This document shows, piece after piece, positions 1 through 24,335 of a DNA stretch of 24,335 nucleotides (positions are counted from its first letter, which is position 1; each line of letters starts with the position of its first letter). Origin of the DNA: Candidatus Firestoneibacteriota bacterium (GTDB lineage: Bacteria > Oederibacteriota > D2-FULL-39-29 > JBDRBU01). The position numbers and the translations under genes were made by a program. Location of the stretch: assembly GCA_043822305.1 (NCBI GenBank), contig JBDRBU010000103.1, positions 1 to 24,335 on the forward strand, read 5' to 3'. The notes under the pieces were generated by a model that was not told where the DNA came from, did not search any database, and saw only the letters and a list, made by a program, of their open reading frames with translations.

Positions 1-141
1 TCTTGATAAGATACTACGGTTTTATTGTTGTAGATGAGTGGCAGTTTTTGGGGTTTTATTGTTGTAATAGTGACATTTAATAGTGGTTTTTTGAGGATTT
101 TATCGCTGTAAATTAACAAGGTTTTATTGCTGTAAATAACA
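1..141 (-). mobile_element. Terminus of a DDE transposon (Tn7-like; IS21/IS481-type not excluded); the body lies left of the window
   Basis: The minus strand from 141 reads TGTTATTTACAGCAATAAAACC. Four direct copies of TACARCRATAAAAYC lie at 120-134, 96-110, 52-66 and 18-32. The TGT coincides with the point where ORF 124-504 runs into CYLQQ-stop. Confidence 0.7.
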
Positions 142-11454: not shown

Positions 11455-12750
11455 TTACACTTTCTTTTCCCATTTTAATAAATCCATCACAGACGATAAT
11501 GTAGAACCTTCTATAATTTCTTTACGAATTCTGTTTTCTTTTTCCAGGACATCCATGGCTCTGTTTGTATATTCCACTGCTTTTTCAGATGGAATTACTA
11601 TTACACCATCATCATCACCAATTATCCAGTCACCTGGAAAAACTTTTTGTCCACCAATATTCACTGGCACATTTATTTCCCCAAATCCTTTTGGTTCACC
11701 GGCATTTGAGGTAATGAGTTTTGAAAATGCTGGAAATTTTAAATCCCTTATCTCTTTGGTGTCTCTAATAGCACCATCTATAACAACACCAGACAACTTT
11801 TTTCTTGCCGAACTATGAGTTGCAAGTTCTCCCCAAACAGCCGGGCCAACTCCACCCGCATCTATAACAATCACATCACCTTCACCAGCCATATCTATGG
11901 CTTCTACTGGTTTTGCCCAATCACCCGGATATGTTCTAACTGTAACCGCTTTTCCAATCATCTTCACACCCTTTACGATTGGATATATATCTTTTAAAGA
12001 CGGTAACCTATGCAACGCATCCGAAATATTTGCCGTAGAAACCAAATTTAAAATTTTAGCTATATCTTTTTCCCCAATTCTTTTATAAAGATTAGTTGGA
12101 ACTTTTTTTAACGAAAGCATTGCTTTTTTTATAACCTGCGTTGCTTTTTTTGCATCCTGTGATTTTGTAATTGCCCCGCCTGCTATTATTATTTTTGCTC
12201 CACATTTTACAGCCTCAACAACATTTTCAGAATTAATTCCACCAGCAACTGCAACTGGAATATTAACCTCTTCACAAACTTTTTTTAAAGCTTTAAAAGG
12301 ACCTTCACCTCTCATCTGCTCATCAATAGAAGTATGAATTCCTATATAATGGACACCTAATTTTTCAACTTCTTTTGCTCTTTTAACAATATCTTTGACT
12401 TCTATCATATCCACTATAATTTCTGCACCATAGTTCTTAGCCGCTTCAACACATTCCGAGATAGTAGAATCAGACGCAACACCCAGAACATCTATAATTT
12501 TTGCTCCGGCTTTAGCCGCCATTTCAACTTCTGCTCTTCCTACATCCATAGTCTTCATATCAGCCACAATAATTTTTCTTGGAAACATTTCTTTTAGTTT
12601 TCTTATGAAATGTAAACCTTCTGCTTTAATTAATGGTGTTCCAACCTCAAGCCAATCAACACCACCAGCAACGGCCTCTTTAGCTACCTTTAAGGCTCGA
12701 TGCATATCTACAAAATCCAATGCAACTTGAAGTATTGGTTTATTTATCAT
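11455..12750 (-). CDS. hxlA: 3-hexulose-6-phosphate synthase fused to an RraA/HMG-aldolase-like domain
   Basis: N-terminal LQVALD, WLEVGTPLIK, VADMKTMD and AVAGG; C-terminal STANISDA, AVWGELA, IDGAIRD and GDDDGVIVIP. Confidence 0.9.
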   Translation of the reverse strand: MINKPILQVALDFVDMHRALKVAKEAVAGGVDWLEVGTPLIKAEGLHFIRKLKEMFPRKIIVADMKTMDVGRAEVEMAAKAGAKIIDVLGVASDSTISECVEAAKNYGAEIIVDMIEVKDIVKRAKEVEKLGVHYIGIHTSIDEQMRGEGPFKALKKVCEEVNIPVAVAGGINSENVVEAVKCGAKIIIAGGAITKSQDAKKATQVIKKAMLSLKKVPTNLYKRIGEKDIAKILNLVSTANISDALHRLPSLKDIYPIVKGVKMIGKAVTVRTYPGDWAKPVEAIDMAGEGDVIVIDAGGVGPAVWGELATHSSARKKLSGVVIDGAIRDTKEIRDLKFPAFSKLITSNAGEPKGFGEINVPVNIGGQKVFPGDWIIGDDDGVIVIPSEKAVEYTNRAMDVLEKENRIRKEIIEGSTLSSVMDLLKWEKKV

Positions 12751-13170
12751 TTATTCTCCAATAATTTGAACTATCAACTCTCTTTCACGCACTCTATTAT
12801 CAAAGTCAATAAATATTATTTGTTGCCAGATACCTAATTGAAGTTTTTTATTAACAAATGGAACGACTAAAGATGGGCCAAGCAGCGTAGATCTAATATG
12901 AGAATGGCCATTGGCATCAGAATGAGATAAATTATGCGCATAATTTTCTCCTTCTGGAACTAACTTACTGATGAAATTTTTTAAATCAGAAACCAAACCC
13001 GGCTCATATTCCATTGTCGTCACAGAACCTGTTGCCCCTGGAACAAATACAGTTACTAGACCCGAAGTTACTTCCGAATCCTGAACCCTTCGATCAACTA
13101 AATTAGTCACATCCATTATATCAACATTTCCTTTTGTTTTAAATTTTATTTTTTCTGTATAGACTGACAT
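12751..13170 (-). CDS. yjbQ: YjbQ/UPF0047 family protein
   Basis: Motifs GATGSVTTMEYEPGL, NGHSHIRSTLLGPS and LGIWQQIIFIDFD. Confidence 0.92.
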   Translation of the reverse strand: MSVYTEKIKFKTKGNVDIMDVTNLVDRRVQDSEVTSGLVTVFVPGATGSVTTMEYEPGLVSDLKNFISKLVPEGENYAHNLSHSDANGHSHIRSTLLGPSLVVPFVNKKLQLGIWQQIIFIDFDNRVRERELIVQIIGE

Positions 13171-13183
13171 ATCATCATCCTTT

Positions 13184-13227
13184 AATAGGGACAGACACCC
13201 TATTTTTAAAAGTGGACAGCCACCTTT
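13184..13227. repeat. Two tandem GGGACAGMCAC-family hairpins
   Basis: AATAGGG-ACAGACA-CCCTATT (perfect 7-bp arms) followed by AAAGTGGACAGCCACCTTT. Confidence 0.75.
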
Positions 13228-13239
13228 ATCAAAAAAAAT

Positions 13240-13311
13240 TTATTCTACGGTAACACTTTTTGCTAAATTTCTTGGTTTATCCACATCACATCCTTTCTCA
13301 ACGGCACACAT
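13240..13311 (-). pseudogene. glmS: 23-codon ORF matching the GlmS C-terminal tail (glmS 3' fragment)
   Basis: Manual translation MCAVEKGCDVDKPRNLAKSVTVE*; the ATG lies 2 nt after the stop of the gamma subunit gene. Confidence 0.85.
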
Positions 13312-13313
13312 AA

Positions 13314-13853
13314 TTAACCTTTACCAATTTCATACCCTTTTTCTAACGCTTTTTTATTACATTCTAACATGTCGAGATATCTTTTGGATATTACATTTCC
13401 TAATGAGATTATTAAAGAATCTAACCTCAAAACCTTAGTTTGGGCAATATAAACTCCTAAAGCCATCATATTTAAAACCCTTGGATTGCCTATTTCTTTA
13501 GCCAGATCATTAAACGGCACTTTTATAACTTCCGCGTCTTTTCTTTTTATATCTCTTTTAATTAAAGAAGAATTAAGTATTATTAGCCCATTCTTAGAAA
13601 GTGTTGTTTCATATGTATCAATACCTATATTATCCAGACCAATTATTGTTTTAGGATTTCCAACAACCGGCGAAAAAATTTCCGAATCTGATATGACGAC
13701 AGCACAGTAAGATAATCCCCCTCGCTTTTCCGCACCATATGAAGGGAGCCAGGTGATATGTTTATTTTCTTTTAAAGACGCATATGCAAGTAATGTTCCG
13801 GCTAAAAGCACACCCTGACCACCGCTTCCACATATAATTAAATTCGTTTCCAT
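13314..13853 (-). CDS. 2-oxoacid:ferredoxin oxidoreductase gamma subunit
   Basis: Motifs GSGGQGVLLAG, WLPSYGAEKRGG, NMMALG and NKKALEKG. Confidence 0.93.
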   Translation of the reverse strand: METNLIICGSGGQGVLLAGTLLAYASLKENKHITWLPSYGAEKRGGLSYCAVVISDSEIFSPVVGNPKTIIGLDNIGIDTYETTLSKNGLIILNSSLIKRDIKRKDAEVIKVPFNDLAKEIGNPRVLNMMALGVYIAQTKVLRLDSLIISLGNVISKRYLDMLECNKKALEKGYEIGKG

Positions 13854-13854
13854 T

Positions 13855-14598
13855 TTATTCCTTTGTTCTGTCTTTAATCACCCCAACCGGGAAATAACTC
13901 ATCATCTTTTCTTTTACAAATTTTAAGGCATCTAAGGGATTTAATCCCCAGTTAACGGGACACTGGGAAAGAACTTCGACCAAACTAAATCCAAGTCCGT
14001 CTATTTGATTTTGAAATGCTTTTTTAATTGCCTTTTTTGCTTTTAAAACATTTGCCGGATTTATAAGTGTAACTCTCTCTAAATAAACTGCACCTTCTAA
14101 ACTAGCCAGTAGTTCGCAAACTTTAAGCGGGTAACCAGCCAATTTAGCATCTCTTCCATCTGGAGTAGTCGTCGTCTTTTGCCCGAGTAAAGTAGTGGGA
14201 GCCATCTGACCACCGGTCATACCATAATTTGCATTGTTTATAAATATAACGGTTATATTCTCGCCACGATTTGCGGCATGAACTATTTCATTAGCCCCTA
14301 TGGAGATTAAATCCCCATCACCTTGATAAGTAAACACTATTCTCTCAGGTAAAACTCTTTTTATTCCTGTGGCTACTGCTGGCGGCCTTCCATGCGGTGC
14401 CTCAGTTACATCAAAATTAAAATAATCATATGCAAAAACAGCACAACCTACAGGAGCAATACCAATCGTTTTTTCTCTCACATCTAACTCATCTATAACC
14501 TCGGCCACAAGTCTATGAACAATCCCATGCCCGCATCCGGCACAATAGGTGGTAATCGCATCCTTTAAACTTTCCGGTCTACCAAAAATCTTTTTCAT
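13855..14598 (-). CDS. 2-oxoacid:ferredoxin oxidoreductase beta (TPP-binding) subunit, Vor type
   Basis: Motifs [38 protein letters not shown] and CPVNW. Confidence 0.93.
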
Positions 14599-15689
14599 CT
14601 ATTCCCCCTTAACAAAGGGGGTAGGGGGTTGTCTTCTTTCACTTCTTTCACTTCTTTCACTTTCCCCATTATCTCCTCTGGTGATGGAACTCCTCCACCA
14701 GGTCTTCCGTAAAAGAATACTTTTGATTTATCAACTACGGCTAACTTAACATCTTCAATCATCTGTCCTAAATTCTGTTCGACAACCAAGATTTTTTTTG
14801 CTTTTTTAGAAACTTTATTTAAAATATCATCTGGAAATGGCCAAAGTGTAATTGGTCTAACTAATCCAATTTTAACCCCTTTGGTTCTACCTAACTCTAC
14901 TGCACCTTTAGAAATCCGGCCAACTATCCCCTGGGCCACTATTAATATTTCTGCATCTTCTACTTTGTATAATTCACATTTTATTTCTTTTTCTTCTATA
15001 ATCTTATATTTTTCTGCTAAATGCCAGTTATGTCTTTCTAATATTCCTGGAGCCATCATCAAAGAATACAAACATCTTGGTTTTCTTCCTTTGCATCCAT
15101 CTAACGCCCAATCTTTTGGAGGCAAATCCCTCTTAGAAATTTCTTTAAAAACCGCTGATTCCATCATCTGTCCCAATATACCATCACTTAAAATCATTAC
15201 CGGAATTCTATATAAGTCAGCAAGGTCAAATGCAGTAACAGTTAAATCTATAGCCTCCTGAATAGTTGTAGGAGCCTGGACTATTAATCTATAATCTCCA
15301 TGTCCACCACCTTTAACTGCTTGAAAATAATCTGCTTGTGAACCCTGGATACTACCTAATCCTGGTCCACCTCTTTGCATATTAATAATAACCGCTGGAA
15401 GTTCTAAAGCTGCAAGATAAGAAATCCCTTCCATTTTTAAACTAATTCCTGGACTTGATGAAGAAGTCATCGCCCGTACTCCAGCAAGAGAAGCACCCAT
15501 AACCATATTTATCGCGGCCAGTTCGCTTTCTGCCTGAATAAAAACTCCACCAACTTCAGGCATCCTCCAGGACATATACTCAGGTATCTGATTTTGTGGC
15601 GTAATTGGATACCCCGCATAAAATCTACAGCCTGCTCGAACGGCTGCTTCGGCTATGGCTTCATTTCCTTTAATTAATATTTTTTTCAT
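14595..15689 (-). CDS. vorB: 2-oxoacid:ferredoxin oxidoreductase alpha subunit (VorB-like, 3-methyl-2-oxobutanoate dehydrogenase)
   Basis: Motifs [32 protein letters not shown] and RGGPGLG. The homologous start is the ATG at 15689; the upstream ATG at 15725 adds repeat-derived residues. Confidence 0.9.
14601..14632. repeat. CCCCCTT-N4-AAGGGGG palindromic repeat, copy 2 (inside the vorB 3' end)
   Basis: ATTCCCCCTTAACAAAGGGGGTAGGGGGTTGT, translated as [10 protein letters not shown]. Confidence 0.85.
14634..14669. repeat. 9-bp tandem repeat in the vorB 3' end
   Basis: TTCTTTCAC x3 plus TTTCCCCAT, translated as [12 protein letters not shown]. Confidence 0.8.
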
Positions 15690-15734
15690 TTCATCTACTT
15701 CTTTCACTTCATCCACTTCTCCCATTTTCTTTAC
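15690..15734. repeat. Degenerate 9-bp tandem repeat, 5 units, delta/alpha junction
   Basis: TTCATCTAC TTCTTTCAC TTCATCCAC TTCTCCCAT TTTCTTTAC. Confidence 0.7.
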
Positions 15735-21457: not shown

Positions 21458-21485
21458 ATAGGGACAGACACCTTTTTTTGACCCC
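21458..21485. repeat. GGGACAGACACC plus TGACCCC repeat at the left flank of the R-M cassette
   Basis: ATAGGGACAGACACC is identical to 13185-13199. Confidence 0.7.
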
Positions 21486-22373
21486 TTATTTATAAAACAA
21501 ACTCATCTCTTTCTGTCCACTGATTGTAACTTTACTTTTCTTGTTTTGTGGTCCATATCTTCCTGTAAATTCACCCATTTTTTTTCTTTCTTCAAAAGTT
21601 TTTATTACAATATGTTTATTTATTTCTTCTTTGACGAATTTTAATTCGCTTTCATAATTATTCAACCTGTTTTTAGCAAATTTAACATATTCTTCGGAAA
21701 TTTCTATACCAATGTAATCCAGTCCCAATATCTTTGCGGCAACTAAAGTTGTTCCACTCCCAGCATATGGATCAATGACTACTCCCTTTTTATTATTCAT
21801 AATTGAATAAATCGCCCTGATAGGCAATACTAACGGAAAAGGTGCTGGATGTGAATTTGTTCGCTCGGGAGAAAATCGCCAAATAGAAGTTAATAAAGCA
21901 TGTTTTGACTTTAATTCTTCACCGATTAAATTTTTCTCTTTTGGTTTGTAAAGCCAATATATTCTTTCCTCTACTTGCCAGAATCTCCAGCCCCTTATAT
22001 TGGCCGCTATCATTCTATCCCAGATTATTTCTTGTCTAATTGCCCACTTTGTTTGCCTTAACCAATCCATAGGATGAAACATCTCACCTCTTTCCCATCT
22101 TATTTTGTGATTGTAAAAAAATGACCCACCGAGTTTAGTAATTCTGAAAATTTCATTTAAAACCATTATTTGATTTTTCTGATATTCATCTTCATGTATT
22201 TTGTCTACGGCACCCTCATATTTTACATTTTTTACTAACCAACCCTTTTTATTCTCACCTTTATTATAAGGTGGTGATGTTATCCCAACATCAACAATTT
22301 CATCTGATAAAGTTTTCAAAATTGTCAAGGCATCGCTTTTAATTATTTTATTCAGATATTCATCTGATTTCAT
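21486..22373 (-). CDS. Beta-class amino DNA methyltransferase (probably m4C)
   Basis: Motif IV TSPPY precedes motif I DPYAGSGTT; HPAPFP. Confidence 0.93.
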   Translation of the reverse strand: MKSDEYLNKIIKSDALTILKTLSDEIVDVGITSPPYNKGENKKGWLVKNVKYEGAVDKIHEDEYQKNQIMVLNEIFRITKLGGSFFYNHKIRWERGEMFHPMDWLRQTKWAIRQEIIWDRMIAANIRGWRFWQVEERIYWLYKPKEKNLIGEELKSKHALLTSIWRFSPERTNSHPAPFPLVLPIRAIYSIMNNKKGVVIDPYAGSGTTLVAAKILGLDYIGIEISEEYVKFAKNRLNNYESELKFVKEEINKHIVIKTFEERKKMGEFTGRYGPQNKKSKVTISGQKEMSLFYK

Positions 22374-23080
22374 TTTGCTCTTCCTTCTAAAAATTCATAA
22401 AAACCTTTGATTATATATAGTTTATATTTTGCTAATTCATCTTTATTTAAAAGATAGGCAATTTTTAAATTTGGGCTTTTAATAAAATCCTTGTAATCAA
22501 AATCTGCACTTCTTAAAAATTGCCCTTTTGTGCTTTCACTTCCCTTTAATTTTCTCTGCCATTTCTGTATTTTTATTTCCAAATTTTTCACAAAATCTGA
22601 AGAAGTAAAAGGAAACTCAATAATATAAACAAGTTTACCGTCTACAAATCCACTTACTAGCATATTTAAATCTTTTTCTTGTTTGTCTTTTTGCAATCTT
22701 GCGGGAGTATAATCAGTAAAATTTCCTCCACCATTTAATTTTGACGGTCTTGTTTTTCTTTCACCTCTTTTATGTTTTTCAAGTTCTTCAGTACCAAAAT
22801 TTTTGGGTTTCGCCTCACATTTCATAGTCCTTCCAGGAATAAAAGTGTCTTGTTTAAAACCATTATACCCTATTTTGCCTTCTTTATGTTCATATCCTGC
22901 TAATGTAATGGTTAAAAACTCTCGTATTGTTGATGAATTCTTGTCATTTATATACATCGTCAGTAAATCAACAAGCATTCCTATAATAGTATCTTTGGAT
23001 TTACCTATCAAATAACTGCTTAGCTCTCTATGGGTTCCCGTTGAATAGATTTTTACTACATTTGCCAATTCTTGATTCAT
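22370..23080 (-). CDS. Putative type II restriction endonuclease
   Basis: ATGA-coupled to the MTase; basic 236-aa protein with GYNG..CEAK resembling PD-(D/E)xK; GAGGTG RBS. Confidence 0.55.
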   Translation of the reverse strand: MNQELANVVKIYSTGTHRELSSYLIGKSKDTIIGMLVDLLTMYINDKNSSTIREFLTITLAGYEHKEGKIGYNGFKQDTFIPGRTMKCEAKPKNFGTEELEKHKRGERKTRPSKLNGGGNFTDYTPARLQKDKQEKDLNMLVSGFVDGKLVYIIEFPFTSSDFVKNLEIKIQKWQRKLKGSESTKGQFLRSADFDYKDFIKSPNLKIAYLLNKDELAKYKLYIIKGFYEFLEGRAK

Positions 23081-24192: not shown

Positions 24193-24335
24193 ATTACGGT
24201 TCTTCAGGTTTGATTGTAGAAAATTTATTTAATATTTCTACCTTTGCCTGAAGCCTCCTTTAATTTGAATTTATCCTAATTTAAGGTTAGGATATTGACC
24301 TTTTTACAGTTCAATTCTTCACTGTGTATTTTATC

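What the first reader, a model, noticed from the sequence alone, without database searches (positions are those of the whole stretch)
13240..13311. Stand-alone GlmS C-tail mini-ORF, an orphan attTn7-type sequence inside a metabolic operon
Seen: a clean 72-nt ORF, MCAVEKGCDVDKPRNLAKSVTVE*, 2 nt after the Vor gamma stop. No other glmS sequence is recognisable in the window, and two repeat hairpins follow it. Established: PRNLAKSVTVE is the conserved GlmS terminus containing the Schiff-base lysine, and the DNA encoding it is what Tn7 TnsD recognises. 3' gene duplications are also a typical scar of integrative elements. Inference, in order of plausibility: an integration or rearrangement scar; a deletion remnant; a secondary or decoy Tn7 target; a translated peptide that mimics the GlmS tail. 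The intact frame, an ATG right at the edge of homology and a Tn7-like end 13 kb away make the latter options worth testing.
Basis: partly seen in the sequence, partly recalled or inferred. Interest (0 to 1): 0.75.

Follow-up and report, generated by a model that had tools for sequence, protein, structure and literature searches.

The report
Leftover stub of lost glmS gene
A 72-base reading frame between two metabolic genes is the leftover end (and probably also the start) of the sugar-amine gene glmS, which this bacterium no longer has; it is most likely a harmless scar, not a working gene or transposon landing site.

Summary
On the minus strand, 13240-13311 reads MCAVEKGCDVDKPRNLAKSVTVE*, 2 nt after the vorG stop. 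Its last 21 codons are a true GlmS C-terminus (glmS HMM E 2e-7; 20 of 21 residues and 58 of 66 nt identical to a same-class glmS).

It is not a remnant at an ancestral glmS site. In 9 genomes of the order and in one closer metagenome contig, vorG and yjbQ abut or overlap. This genome has 146 nt there, so about 110-140 nt are extra. They hold the stub, a T-run and two hairpins.

The hairpins belong to a 76-copy repeat family that also forms the inverted ends of a tyrosine (Y1) transposase cassette, a 'TIRtron'.

The assembly (96.8% complete) has no other glmS but has nagB. In the order, 8 genomes have nagB without glmS and 3 have the reverse.

The first 7 nt (ATGTGTG) equal the start of full glmS genes (MCG...). 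My best reading (0.45) is a glmS copy that once sat here and collapsed by an in-frame internal deletion. Capture of a 3' fragment is the main rival (0.30).

The full 36-bp TnsD site equivalent is present, but I found no Tn7 targeting genes and no inserted element. Low interest.

The parts
13240..13311 (-). 23-codon ORF MCAVEKGCDVDKPRNLAKSVTVE*. Codons 3-23 plus the stop (13240-13305) are the glmS 3' terminus. Codons 1-2 plus the next G (13305-13311, ATGTGTG) equal the 5' start of full glmS genes.
13240..13275 (-). The last 36 bp of the ORF. In E. coli this stretch is the TnsD binding site (attTn7). It encodes PRNLAKSVTVE unchanged.
   Evidence: for the sequence. Passages of PMC2918618 for 'last 36 bp of the glmS ORF'. 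No binding test was done.
13312..13316 (-). The vorG stop codon TAA (13314-13316) and the 2-nt spacer before the ATG. AAAGG, 6 nt upstream of the ATG, could serve as a ribosome binding site.
   Evidence: read from the sequence.
13205..13239 (-). A/T-rich linker (a run of eight T) and the first hairpin AAAGGTGGCTGTCCACTTTT. This is the GGTGGCTGTCC variant of the repeat family, which has 6 copies in the genome.
   Evidence: centroid fold.
13182..13204 (-). Second hairpin AATAGGGTGTCTGTCCCTATT. This is the GGTGTCTGTCC variant of the family (33 copies). The same sequence type forms the inverted ends of the Y1-transposase cassette on contig C100.
13171..13181 (-). Ribosome binding site (AAAGG) and spacer of yjbQ, whose ATG is at 13170.
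12751..13170 (-). yjbQ (TIGR00149, 112 bits over its cut-off). This is the downstream neighbour. It abuts vorG in relatives.
13314..13853 (-). 2-oxoacid:ferredoxin oxidoreductase gamma subunit (vorG-type). This is the upstream neighbour. Its C-terminus ...ALEKGYEIGKG resembles that of relatives (...AIEKGYEIGKK).

Best explanation
The mini-ORF is the collapsed remains of a glmS gene and has no function of its own.

After this lineage split from its nearest sampled relative, a glmS copy came to lie between vorG and yjbQ, followed by two copies of the genome's transposase-end repeats (inferred). An in-frame internal deletion then removed codons 3 to about 587. What stayed is the start codon, the Cys-2 codon, the last 21 codons and the stop (inferred from the sequence).

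The rest of glmS is gone from the genome (shown for the assembly). Glucosamine-6-phosphate is presumably made or recycled through NagB (inferred).

The stub is carried along inside the vor-yjbQ-hps transcript. It may be translated by coupling to vorG, but nothing indicates that the peptide or the DNA site is used.
For: (1) True glmS tail: HMM E 2e-7 at model positions 584-607. It shares 20 of 21 residues and 58 of 66 nt with the same-class genome G012. Five of the 6 differing codons are synonymous, and GC is 0.36 against 0.32 in G012 and 0.316 for the genome.

(2) Lineage-specific stretch: between the VorG and YjbQ matches lie 5-34 nt in 9 genomes of the order and 146 nt here. In metagenome contig L055 (VorG 84% identical) the two genes overlap by 16 nt.

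(3) The first 7 nt, ATGTGTG, equal the start of full glmS genes. G010 and G012 have ATG TGT GGA; G004 and G011 have ATG TGC GG. All encode MCGIVG. Only 161 of 72,730 ATGs in this genome are followed by TGYG.

(4) Cys is not a normal residue before the Ala of the tail. Among 65 species with exactly this 21-residue tail it is M in 47, V in 10, T in 7 and A in 1, never C. So TGT is better explained as codon 2 of glmS.

(5) Young age: all 11 invariant C-terminal residues are intact. Third-codon positions of the flanking genes are only 63-67% identical to L055, so the stub is much younger than that split, or it is constrained.

(6) Genuine loss of glmS: no match over the cut-off in the 96.8%-complete assembly, while the control rang in 14 of 14 genomes. 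A nagB is present over its cut-off. In the order, 8 genomes are nagB+/glmS-, 3 are glmS+/nagB- and 1 has neither.
Against: No relative has glmS at this position (0 of 10 loci), so a whole-gene insertion must be assumed with no direct trace.

Only 2 nt separate the vorG stop from the ATG, an unusually tight junction for an inserted gene.

A 5-nt direct repeat TATGT flanks the extra DNA (TTATGT at the left, ATATGT at the yjbQ start). L055 has TTATGTCA at its yjbQ start. So ATGT at the left edge could be a duplicated yjbQ start, leaving only 'GT' unexplained. 7.7% of ATGs in the genome sit in TATGT.

The assembly is a draft of 125 contigs, and a glmS in the missing 3% cannot be excluded. In the sister family glmS lies on short contigs (5.9-11 kb).

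nagB and glmS coexist in at least 9 genomes of the phylum. The complementary pattern is therefore local, and kin are not independent.
Confidence: 0.45

Rival explanations
1. Captured 3' fragment. Only the last 65-70 nt of glmS, together with its downstream spacer, were copied here from a glmS locus by illegitimate recombination or template switching. One side was anchored by the shared transposase-end repeat and the other by the microhomology (T)ATGT at the yjbQ start. No full glmS ever sat here. The source gene was lost later or is unassembled.
For: The stub directly adjoins two copies of a 76-copy repeat family, which could supply one-sided homology. TATGT flanks the extra DNA on both sides, and L055 has TTATGTCA at the yjbQ start. 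This needs no whole-gene insertion into a tight operon junction. I did not check that note.
Against: This leaves the match of ATGTGTG to the glmS start as coincidence. After ATGT, 'GT' must be filler or a native Cys, Ser, Gly or Arg codon. That residue is Cys in 0 of 65 exact-tail species and in 1 of 20 other tails. No other copy of the tail exists in the assembly as a template.
Confidence: 0.3
2. Attachment-site scar of an integrative or Tn7-like element. An element that carries or targets the glmS 3' end entered here, or beside glmS, and left a duplicated tail when it was lost.
For: 3' gene duplications are typical of site-specific integration (general knowledge). The contig ends in transposon-like repeats, at window 1-140 and 24201-24335. 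The stub holds the full 36-bp equivalent of the TnsD site (passages of PMC2918618).
Against: No integrase or transposase gene lies among the 25 ORFs of the window. Only about 70 nt lie between the stub and yjbQ, and they are filled by the hairpin repeats. There is no TniQ match in the genome; there is no TnsA_N match either, though that control rang in no genome. Both flanks are syntenic with relatives. The repeat at 1-140 is 13 kb away across housekeeping genes.
Confidence: 0.07
3. Selected element. The stub is kept because it works, either as a surviving or decoy attTn7 landing pad in a lineage without glmS, or as a translated 23-residue peptide that mimics the GlmS tail.
For: The frame is intact, all invariant residues are kept, there is an AAAGG 6 nt before the ATG, and the ATG is 2 nt after the vorG stop, which would allow translational coupling.
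Against: It occurs in one genome only. None of 10 orthologous loci has it. I saw no stand-alone tail in the 98 other genomes of the phylum: every match lay in an open frame of 70 aa or more, and the short frames I opened were cut by a contig end or were disrupted full-length genes. No Tn7 targeting gene was found. The peptide lacks everything of GlmS except the tail. A recent origin explains the intactness equally well.
Confidence: 0.06
4. Assembly artefact. The stub was stitched in by a mis-join in a metagenome assembly.
For: The genome is a 125-contig draft with 2% estimated contamination. Short repeats lie next to the stub.
Against: Two mis-joins within 146 nt would be needed. One would be at a 7-nt overlap, far below any assembler word size (inference). 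Both flanks are syntenic with relatives, the hairpins are this genome's own repeats, and the stub's GC (0.36) fits the genome (0.316).
Confidence: 0.03

Closest known systems
Gene relics (short pseudogene fragments left by deletion)
   Same: A short, non-functional piece of a once complete gene lies in an intergenic spacer. The gene is otherwise missing from the genome.
   Different: The relic is not at the gene's ancestral position. It seems to join the first 7 nt to the last 65 nt in frame, so it still reads as a clean ORF.
attTn7, the TnsD target at the end of glmS (Mitra, McKenzie & Craig 2010, PMC2918618; passages read)
   Same: [quoted passage not shown] According to that paper, this stretch carries all the information needed for Tn7 insertion about 20-25 bp past the stop.
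   Different: There is no glmS gene attached, no element inserted downstream and no TniQ/TnsD-family gene in the assembly. An insertion there would split the vor-yjbQ-hps operon.
TIRtrons and TIR repeat families of TIR-associated tyrosine transposases (Di Nocera et al. 2013, PMC3733652; passages read)
   Same: The two hairpins carry GGGACAG or GGACAG, read on the opposite strand. Other copies of the family carry the full GGGGACAG, which fits the paper's TIR motif GGGGWSAS. An inverted pair of the same sequence flanks a Y1 transposase gene on contig C100. Solo and paired copies are dispersed, as described for some TIR families.
   Different: That paper does not describe gene fragments carried beside such repeats. 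Whether the transposase had any part in placing the stub is open.
Insertion with long target duplication
   Same: It leaves leftover copies of the last codons of glmS as scars, without a recombinase gene nearby.
   Different: There the tails follow an intact glmS and bracket cargo blocks. Here there is a single tail, no glmS and no cargo.

Membership tests
GlmS (glutamine-fructose-6-phosphate aminotransferase, TIGR01135) | Score over the curated cut-off across about 607 positions (N-terminal amidotransferase domain and two SIS domains) | tested here: not met
   30.5 bits against a cut-off of 418; only model positions 584-607 match.
GlmS (glutamine-fructose-6-phosphate aminotransferase, TIGR01135) | Conserved C-terminal tail ...DVDxPRNLAKSVTVE | tested here: met
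   20 of 21 residues identical to G012. All of PRNLAKSVTVE is kept.
GlmS (glutamine-fructose-6-phosphate aminotransferase, TIGR01135) | N-terminal Met-Cys (the Cys nucleophile) followed by GIVG | tested here: inconclusive
   M-C and the next G are present (ATGTGTG), as in four full glmS genes. GIVG is absent.
attTn7 (TnsD-dependent Tn7 target) | 36-bp TnsD binding sequence at the end of the glmS ORF with conserved non-wobble bases | tested here: met
   The last 12 codons encode the invariant residues. The criterion comes from passages of PMC2918618. This is a sequence comparison only; binding was not tested.
attTn7 (TnsD-dependent Tn7 target) | Tn7-like element end about 20-25 bp downstream of the stop | tested here: not met
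   The 69 nt between the ORF's stop and the yjbQ ATG hold only a T-run and two hairpin repeats.
attTn7 (TnsD-dependent Tn7 target) | TnsD/TniQ and TnsA genes in the genome | tested here: not met
   PF06527 gave 0 matches and PF08722 gave 0 matches in the 96.8%-complete assembly. The PF08722 control rang in no genome, so that half is weak.
TIR repeats of a TIRtron (Di Nocera et al. 2013) | The same sequence in inverted orientation flanking a Y1 (HUH) transposase gene | tested here: met
   On C100, inverted copies at 22946 and 23679 flank a 223-aa ORF. The PF01797 match there is 60.2 bits, over its cut-off.
TIR repeats of a TIRtron (Di Nocera et al. 2013) | Dispersed family of solo or paired copies; motif GGGGWSAS | tested here: met
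   76 copies fit the pattern used. Many of them read GGGGACAG on the opposite strand. The two copies beside the stub read GGGACAG and GGACAG.
att duplication by an integrative element | An integrase or element between two copies of the gene's 3' end | tested here: not met
   There is one copy of the tail in the genome. No recombinase family appears among the 25 window ORFs.
Conserved small protein or leader peptide | The ORF is present at the same place in related genomes | tested here: not met
   It is present in 0 of 10 orthologous vorG-yjbQ loci.

The most novel reading that the evidence does not exclude
The stub is kept by selection as a free-standing attTn7-type landing pad, or as a translated GlmS-tail peptide, in a lineage that has replaced GlmS by NagB. 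In that case the conserved 'address' of glmS has outlived the gene.
Probability: 0.05. Interest if true: 0.7.

Novelty: new member of a known kind. Interest (0 to 1): 0.3.

Why it matters
Mostly as a caution and a small piece of natural history.

A perfect, ORF-shaped glmS tail can be a young scar rather than a gene or a transposon site.

It also dates a recent loss of glmS in a lineage that carries nagB. In this order the two genes are almost mutually exclusive, which is a testable case of one enzyme taking over amino-sugar supply.

It also shows that operon junctions in this genome are places where extra DNA accumulates, such as the transposase-end repeats and the transposase cassette.

If the stub proved to be a working Tn7 target, it would be a natural example of an attTn7 uncoupled from its gene.

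Tried and rejected
Read mapping: the look-up of sequencing runs listed no run for window 12700-13900. Misassembly, population variants and expression therefore could not be checked.

Native glmS locus: homologues of the genes that follow glmS in G011 lie on G000 contig C70 after parB. The 318-nt spacer there holds other GC-rich hairpins but no glmS remnant. A homologue of the gene next to glmS in G004 lies on C39, and there is no remnant there either.

Recent foreign origin of the tail: 65 GTDB species, nearly all Clostridia, encode exactly this 21-residue tail. Their best nucleotide identity is 56 of 66, below the 58 of 66 for same-class G012. A recent transfer from one of them is not indicated.

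Phage attP idea: tblastn of the peptide against phage records gave 21 records. Four rows are annotated as glmS genes and the other 17 records carry no annotation. I opened none of them, so nothing pointed to a phage att site, and I did not follow this up.

Context of the closest tail: glmS of G012 sits after glmM, not near vor genes.

Known RNA or signals: there is no Rfam match near gathering score in 12900-13500. The consensus scan found no promoter- or terminator-like site inside the extra DNA. The 156-nt RNA fold is no more stable than shuffles (z 0.36).

Repeat position: 31 of 76 repeat copies lie within 60 nt upstream of an ORF start, against 28% of random positions. This is too weak to build on.

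Full report
**1. The observation**

The ORF is on the minus strand. Window 13240-13311 (-) reads MCAVEKGCDVDKPRNLAKSVTVE*. It starts 2 nt after the TAA of a 179-aa 2-oxoacid:ferredoxin oxidoreductase gamma subunit, 13314-13853 (-).

The surrounding genes all lie on the minus strand. They are an alpha subunit of VorB type (531.8 bits, over its cut-off), a beta subunit, the gamma subunit, then the mini-ORF, then yjbQ (12751-13170) and a fused hexulose-6-phosphate synthase/RraA-like gene (11455-12750).

The NCBIfam glmS model matches 13243-13314 (-) at model positions 584-607 of 607 with E 2.0e-7. BLAST of the peptide finds the ends of full-length glmS genes in three genomes of the same order at E 8e-9 to 4e-8.

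**2. It is extra DNA, not a remnant at an old glmS site**

I located the orthologous VorG and YjbQ genes in the 11 other genomes of the order.
- Nine have both genes on one contig. The distance between the two matches is 5-34 nt, against 146 nt in this genome.
- The other two, G008 and G011, gave no orthologous pair.
- A metagenome contig with a closer VorG (L055, 84% identical) has vorB-vorG-yjbQ-hps, with yjbQ starting 16 nt inside vorG. A second metagenome locus, L056 (43% identity), was not examined.

So about 110-140 nt are specific to this lineage. The C-terminus of VorG (...ALEKGYEIGKG) still resembles that of relatives (...AIEKGYEIGKK), so the left edge of the extra DNA lies at or just before the stop codon.

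**3. What the extra DNA contains**

After the stub come a run of eight T and two hairpins, AAAGGTGGCTGTCCACTTTT and AATAGGGTGTCTGTCCCTATT. These two hairpins are the only structures kept in the centroid RNA fold. The stretch as a whole folds no better than shuffles.

- The second hairpin has many near-identical copies in the genome. There are 31 copies within two mismatches of the 17-nt core.
- A looser pattern finds 76 copies: GTCGCTGTCC 36, GGTGTCTGTCC 33, GGTGGCTGTCC 6 and AGGGCTGTCC 1.
- Pairs of a short and a long variant, as here, also occur on contigs C39 and C57.

I followed that lead.
- The genome has six Y1_Tnp matches over the Pfam cut-off.
- On contig C100 an inverted pair of exactly this repeat (at 22946 and 23679) flanks a 223-aa Y1 transposase ORF.
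- The left copy supplies the last codons and the stop of the upstream ORF. The right copy supplies the ATG of a trpF-like ORF.

Read on the opposite strand, many copies carry GGGGACAG. This fits the TIR motif GGGGWSAS that Di Nocera et al. 2013 give for 'TIRtrons', and that paper also reports dispersed solo and dimeric TIR families (PMC3733652, passages). The 'two repeat hairpins' are therefore members of a known kind of repeat. The stub itself has no second copy in the genome.

**4. Where the stub came from**

Across 99 genomes of the phylum, 77 have a match to the peptide.
- The best matches are from the same class and order: G012 at 95% over residues 3-23, and G004, G011 and G010 at 86%.
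- At nucleotide level the 66 nt from GCC to TAA share 58 positions with G012, 55 with G011, 51 with G010 and 49 with G004.
- Against G012, five of the six differing codons are synonymous. GC is 0.36 for the stub, 0.32 for G012 and 0.316 for the whole genome.

A degenerate DNA pattern for exactly this 21-residue tail found 65 of the GTDB species genomes, nearly all Clostridia. Their best nucleotide identity is 56 of 66. Nothing points to a recent foreign donor. The stub looks like this lineage's own type of glmS.

No other genome of the phylum showed a stand-alone tail.
- Among the 76 other genomes with a match, every open frame holding the match was 70 aa or longer.
- Four frames were shorter than 200 aa (G087 70 aa, G067 104, G065 140, G057 143). 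I opened three of them, plus a 260-aa second copy in G059, by tblastn. They are a gene cut by a contig end (G087) or full-length genes with frame disruptions (G057, G065, G059 contig C4).
- By coordinate arithmetic the frame in G067 runs to the start of its contig. I did not open it.

**5. Is glmS really gone?**

The glmS model finds nothing over its cut-off in the 2.15-Mb assembly (125 contigs, 96.8% complete), while it rings in 14 of 14 control genomes. The other six matches are amidotransferase or SIS paralogues. tblastn with two relatives' GlmS agrees.

In the order the picture is as follows.
- glmS is over cut-off in G004, G010 and G011 only.
- nagB (TIGR00502) is over its cut-off in G000 and seven others (G001, G002, G003, G005, G006, G007, G009).
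- nagB is absent from the three glmS holders.
- G008 has neither gene.

This complementary pattern argues that the absence of glmS is real and not a binning gap. There are cautions. Kin are not independent. The glmS contigs of the sister family are short, 5.9-11 kb. In the wider phylum at least nine genomes hold both genes. That NagB supplies glucosamine-6-phosphate here is an inference.

**6. Age**

Between this genome and L055, the flanking genes are 81-85% identical in nucleotides and only 63-67% identical at third codon positions. An unconstrained 66-nt piece of that age should be heavily altered. The stub keeps all 11 invariant residues. So it is much younger than that split, or it is constrained. 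An intact glmS sequence must therefore have been available to this lineage recently.

**7. The ATG**

Full glmS genes of four relatives start ATG TGY GGn ATA GTn GG, encoding MCGIVG. The mini-ORF starts ATG TGT G and then continues with CC GTT GAG, the Ala-Val-Glu of the tail. The first seven bases thus equal the 5' end of glmS.
- In this genome only 161 of 72,730 ATGs are followed by TGYG.
- Cys is not a usual residue before the Ala. It is M in 47, V in 10, T in 7 and A in 1 of the 65 exact-tail species. One of the 20 other tails I held has C.

A deletion from the G of codon 3 to the G of that Ala codon gives exactly the observed in-frame ORF. This is why I rank 'collapsed glmS gene' first, at 0.45.

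The counter-argument is that TATGT occurs at both edges of the extra DNA, and L055 has TTATGTCA at its yjbQ start. ATGT may then be a duplicated yjbQ start from a microhomology junction, with only 'GT' left over. 7.7% of ATGs in the genome lie in TATGT. That supports capture of a 3' fragment, perhaps anchored by the neighbouring repeat, at 0.30. Both readings make the stub a scar, and I cannot separate them without closer relatives or reads.

**8. The Tn7 and peptide ideas**

According to Mitra et al. 2010, the TnsD site is the last 36 bp of the glmS ORF. It carries all the information needed for insertion, which occurs about 20-25 bp past the stop (PMC2918618, passages).

The stub contains that stretch, with the invariant residues encoded. 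By sequence it could be a target. However:
- nothing is inserted in the 69 nt before yjbQ;
- no TniQ-family match exists in the assembly, and there is no TnsA_N match either, although that control rang nowhere;
- the repeat block at window 1-140 is a collapsed contig-end repeat shared only with contig C105, 13 kb away across housekeeping genes.

The peptide could be translated, since AAAGG lies 6 nt before the ATG and the ATG is 2 nt after a stop. But the ORF occurs at none of 10 orthologous loci, and I saw no stand-alone tail elsewhere in the phylum. I give function 0.06.

An assembly artefact would need two mis-joins within 146 nt, one of them at a 7-nt overlap. I give it 0.03.

**9. Verdict**

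This is a genuine and rather neat molecular fossil of glmS. It sits in lineage-specific DNA next to transposase-end repeats, in a genome that otherwise lacks glmS and has nagB. It belongs to a known kind (gene relics and rearrangement scars), so interest is low (0.3). The by-products are the nagB/glmS pattern in this order and the repeat family's habit of sitting at gene junctions.

Noticed in passing
Whole genomes of the order (G000-G011); nagB of G000 at contig C39 18842-19573 (-): nagB and glmS are complementary in this order. Eight genomes have nagB without glmS, three have glmS without nagB and one has neither. In the wider phylum at least nine genomes have both. This may be a recent switch of the route to glucosamine-6-phosphate, even within one genus (g3).
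   Followed up: partly
Window 13186-13202, 13214-13224 and 21459-21475; G000 contig C100 22946-23695: There is a repeat family, GGTG[T/G]CTGTCC / GTCGCTGTCC, with 76 copies. An inverted pair flanks a 223-aa Y1 transposase ORF on C100. The left copy supplies the upstream ORF's stop and the right copy supplies the ATG of a trpF-like ORF. A second pair of the GTCGCTGTCC type brackets another Y1 match on contig C51.
   Followed up: partly
Window 1-140: Four direct copies of about 16 nt, GGTTTTATTG[T/C]TGTA, lie at irregular spacing and end in ...AACA. The stretch is identical to the first 140 nt of contig C105 and then diverges. It looks like the end of a transposon whose body is not assembled. 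Its type is unknown.
   Followed up: partly
Window 24201-24335: The last 135 nt are identical to the ends of 11 other contigs and 84-89% identical to four more places. This is a collapsed high-copy insertion sequence that breaks the assembly.
   Followed up: no
Window 14595-15725 (-): The alpha subunit has Lys/Glu/Val-rich low-complexity ends ([15 protein letters not shown]... and ...[22 protein letters not shown]). Similar GAAAGTGAAGGAAGT-like stretches run into repeat copies on contig C26.
   Followed up: no
G000 contig C70 12130-12447: The spacer between parB and a TPR-like gene holds GC-rich hairpins (CCCCCTTTGTTAAGGGGG and related) of another repeat family.
   Followed up: no
Window 21486-23080 (-): A 295-aa adenine DNA methyltransferase-like ORF overlaps by 4 nt with a 236-aa ORF that has no NCBIfam match. 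It may relate to the 'dead methyltransferase partner' noted earlier for another piece of this genome (e1-7657663). I did not check this.
   Followed up: no
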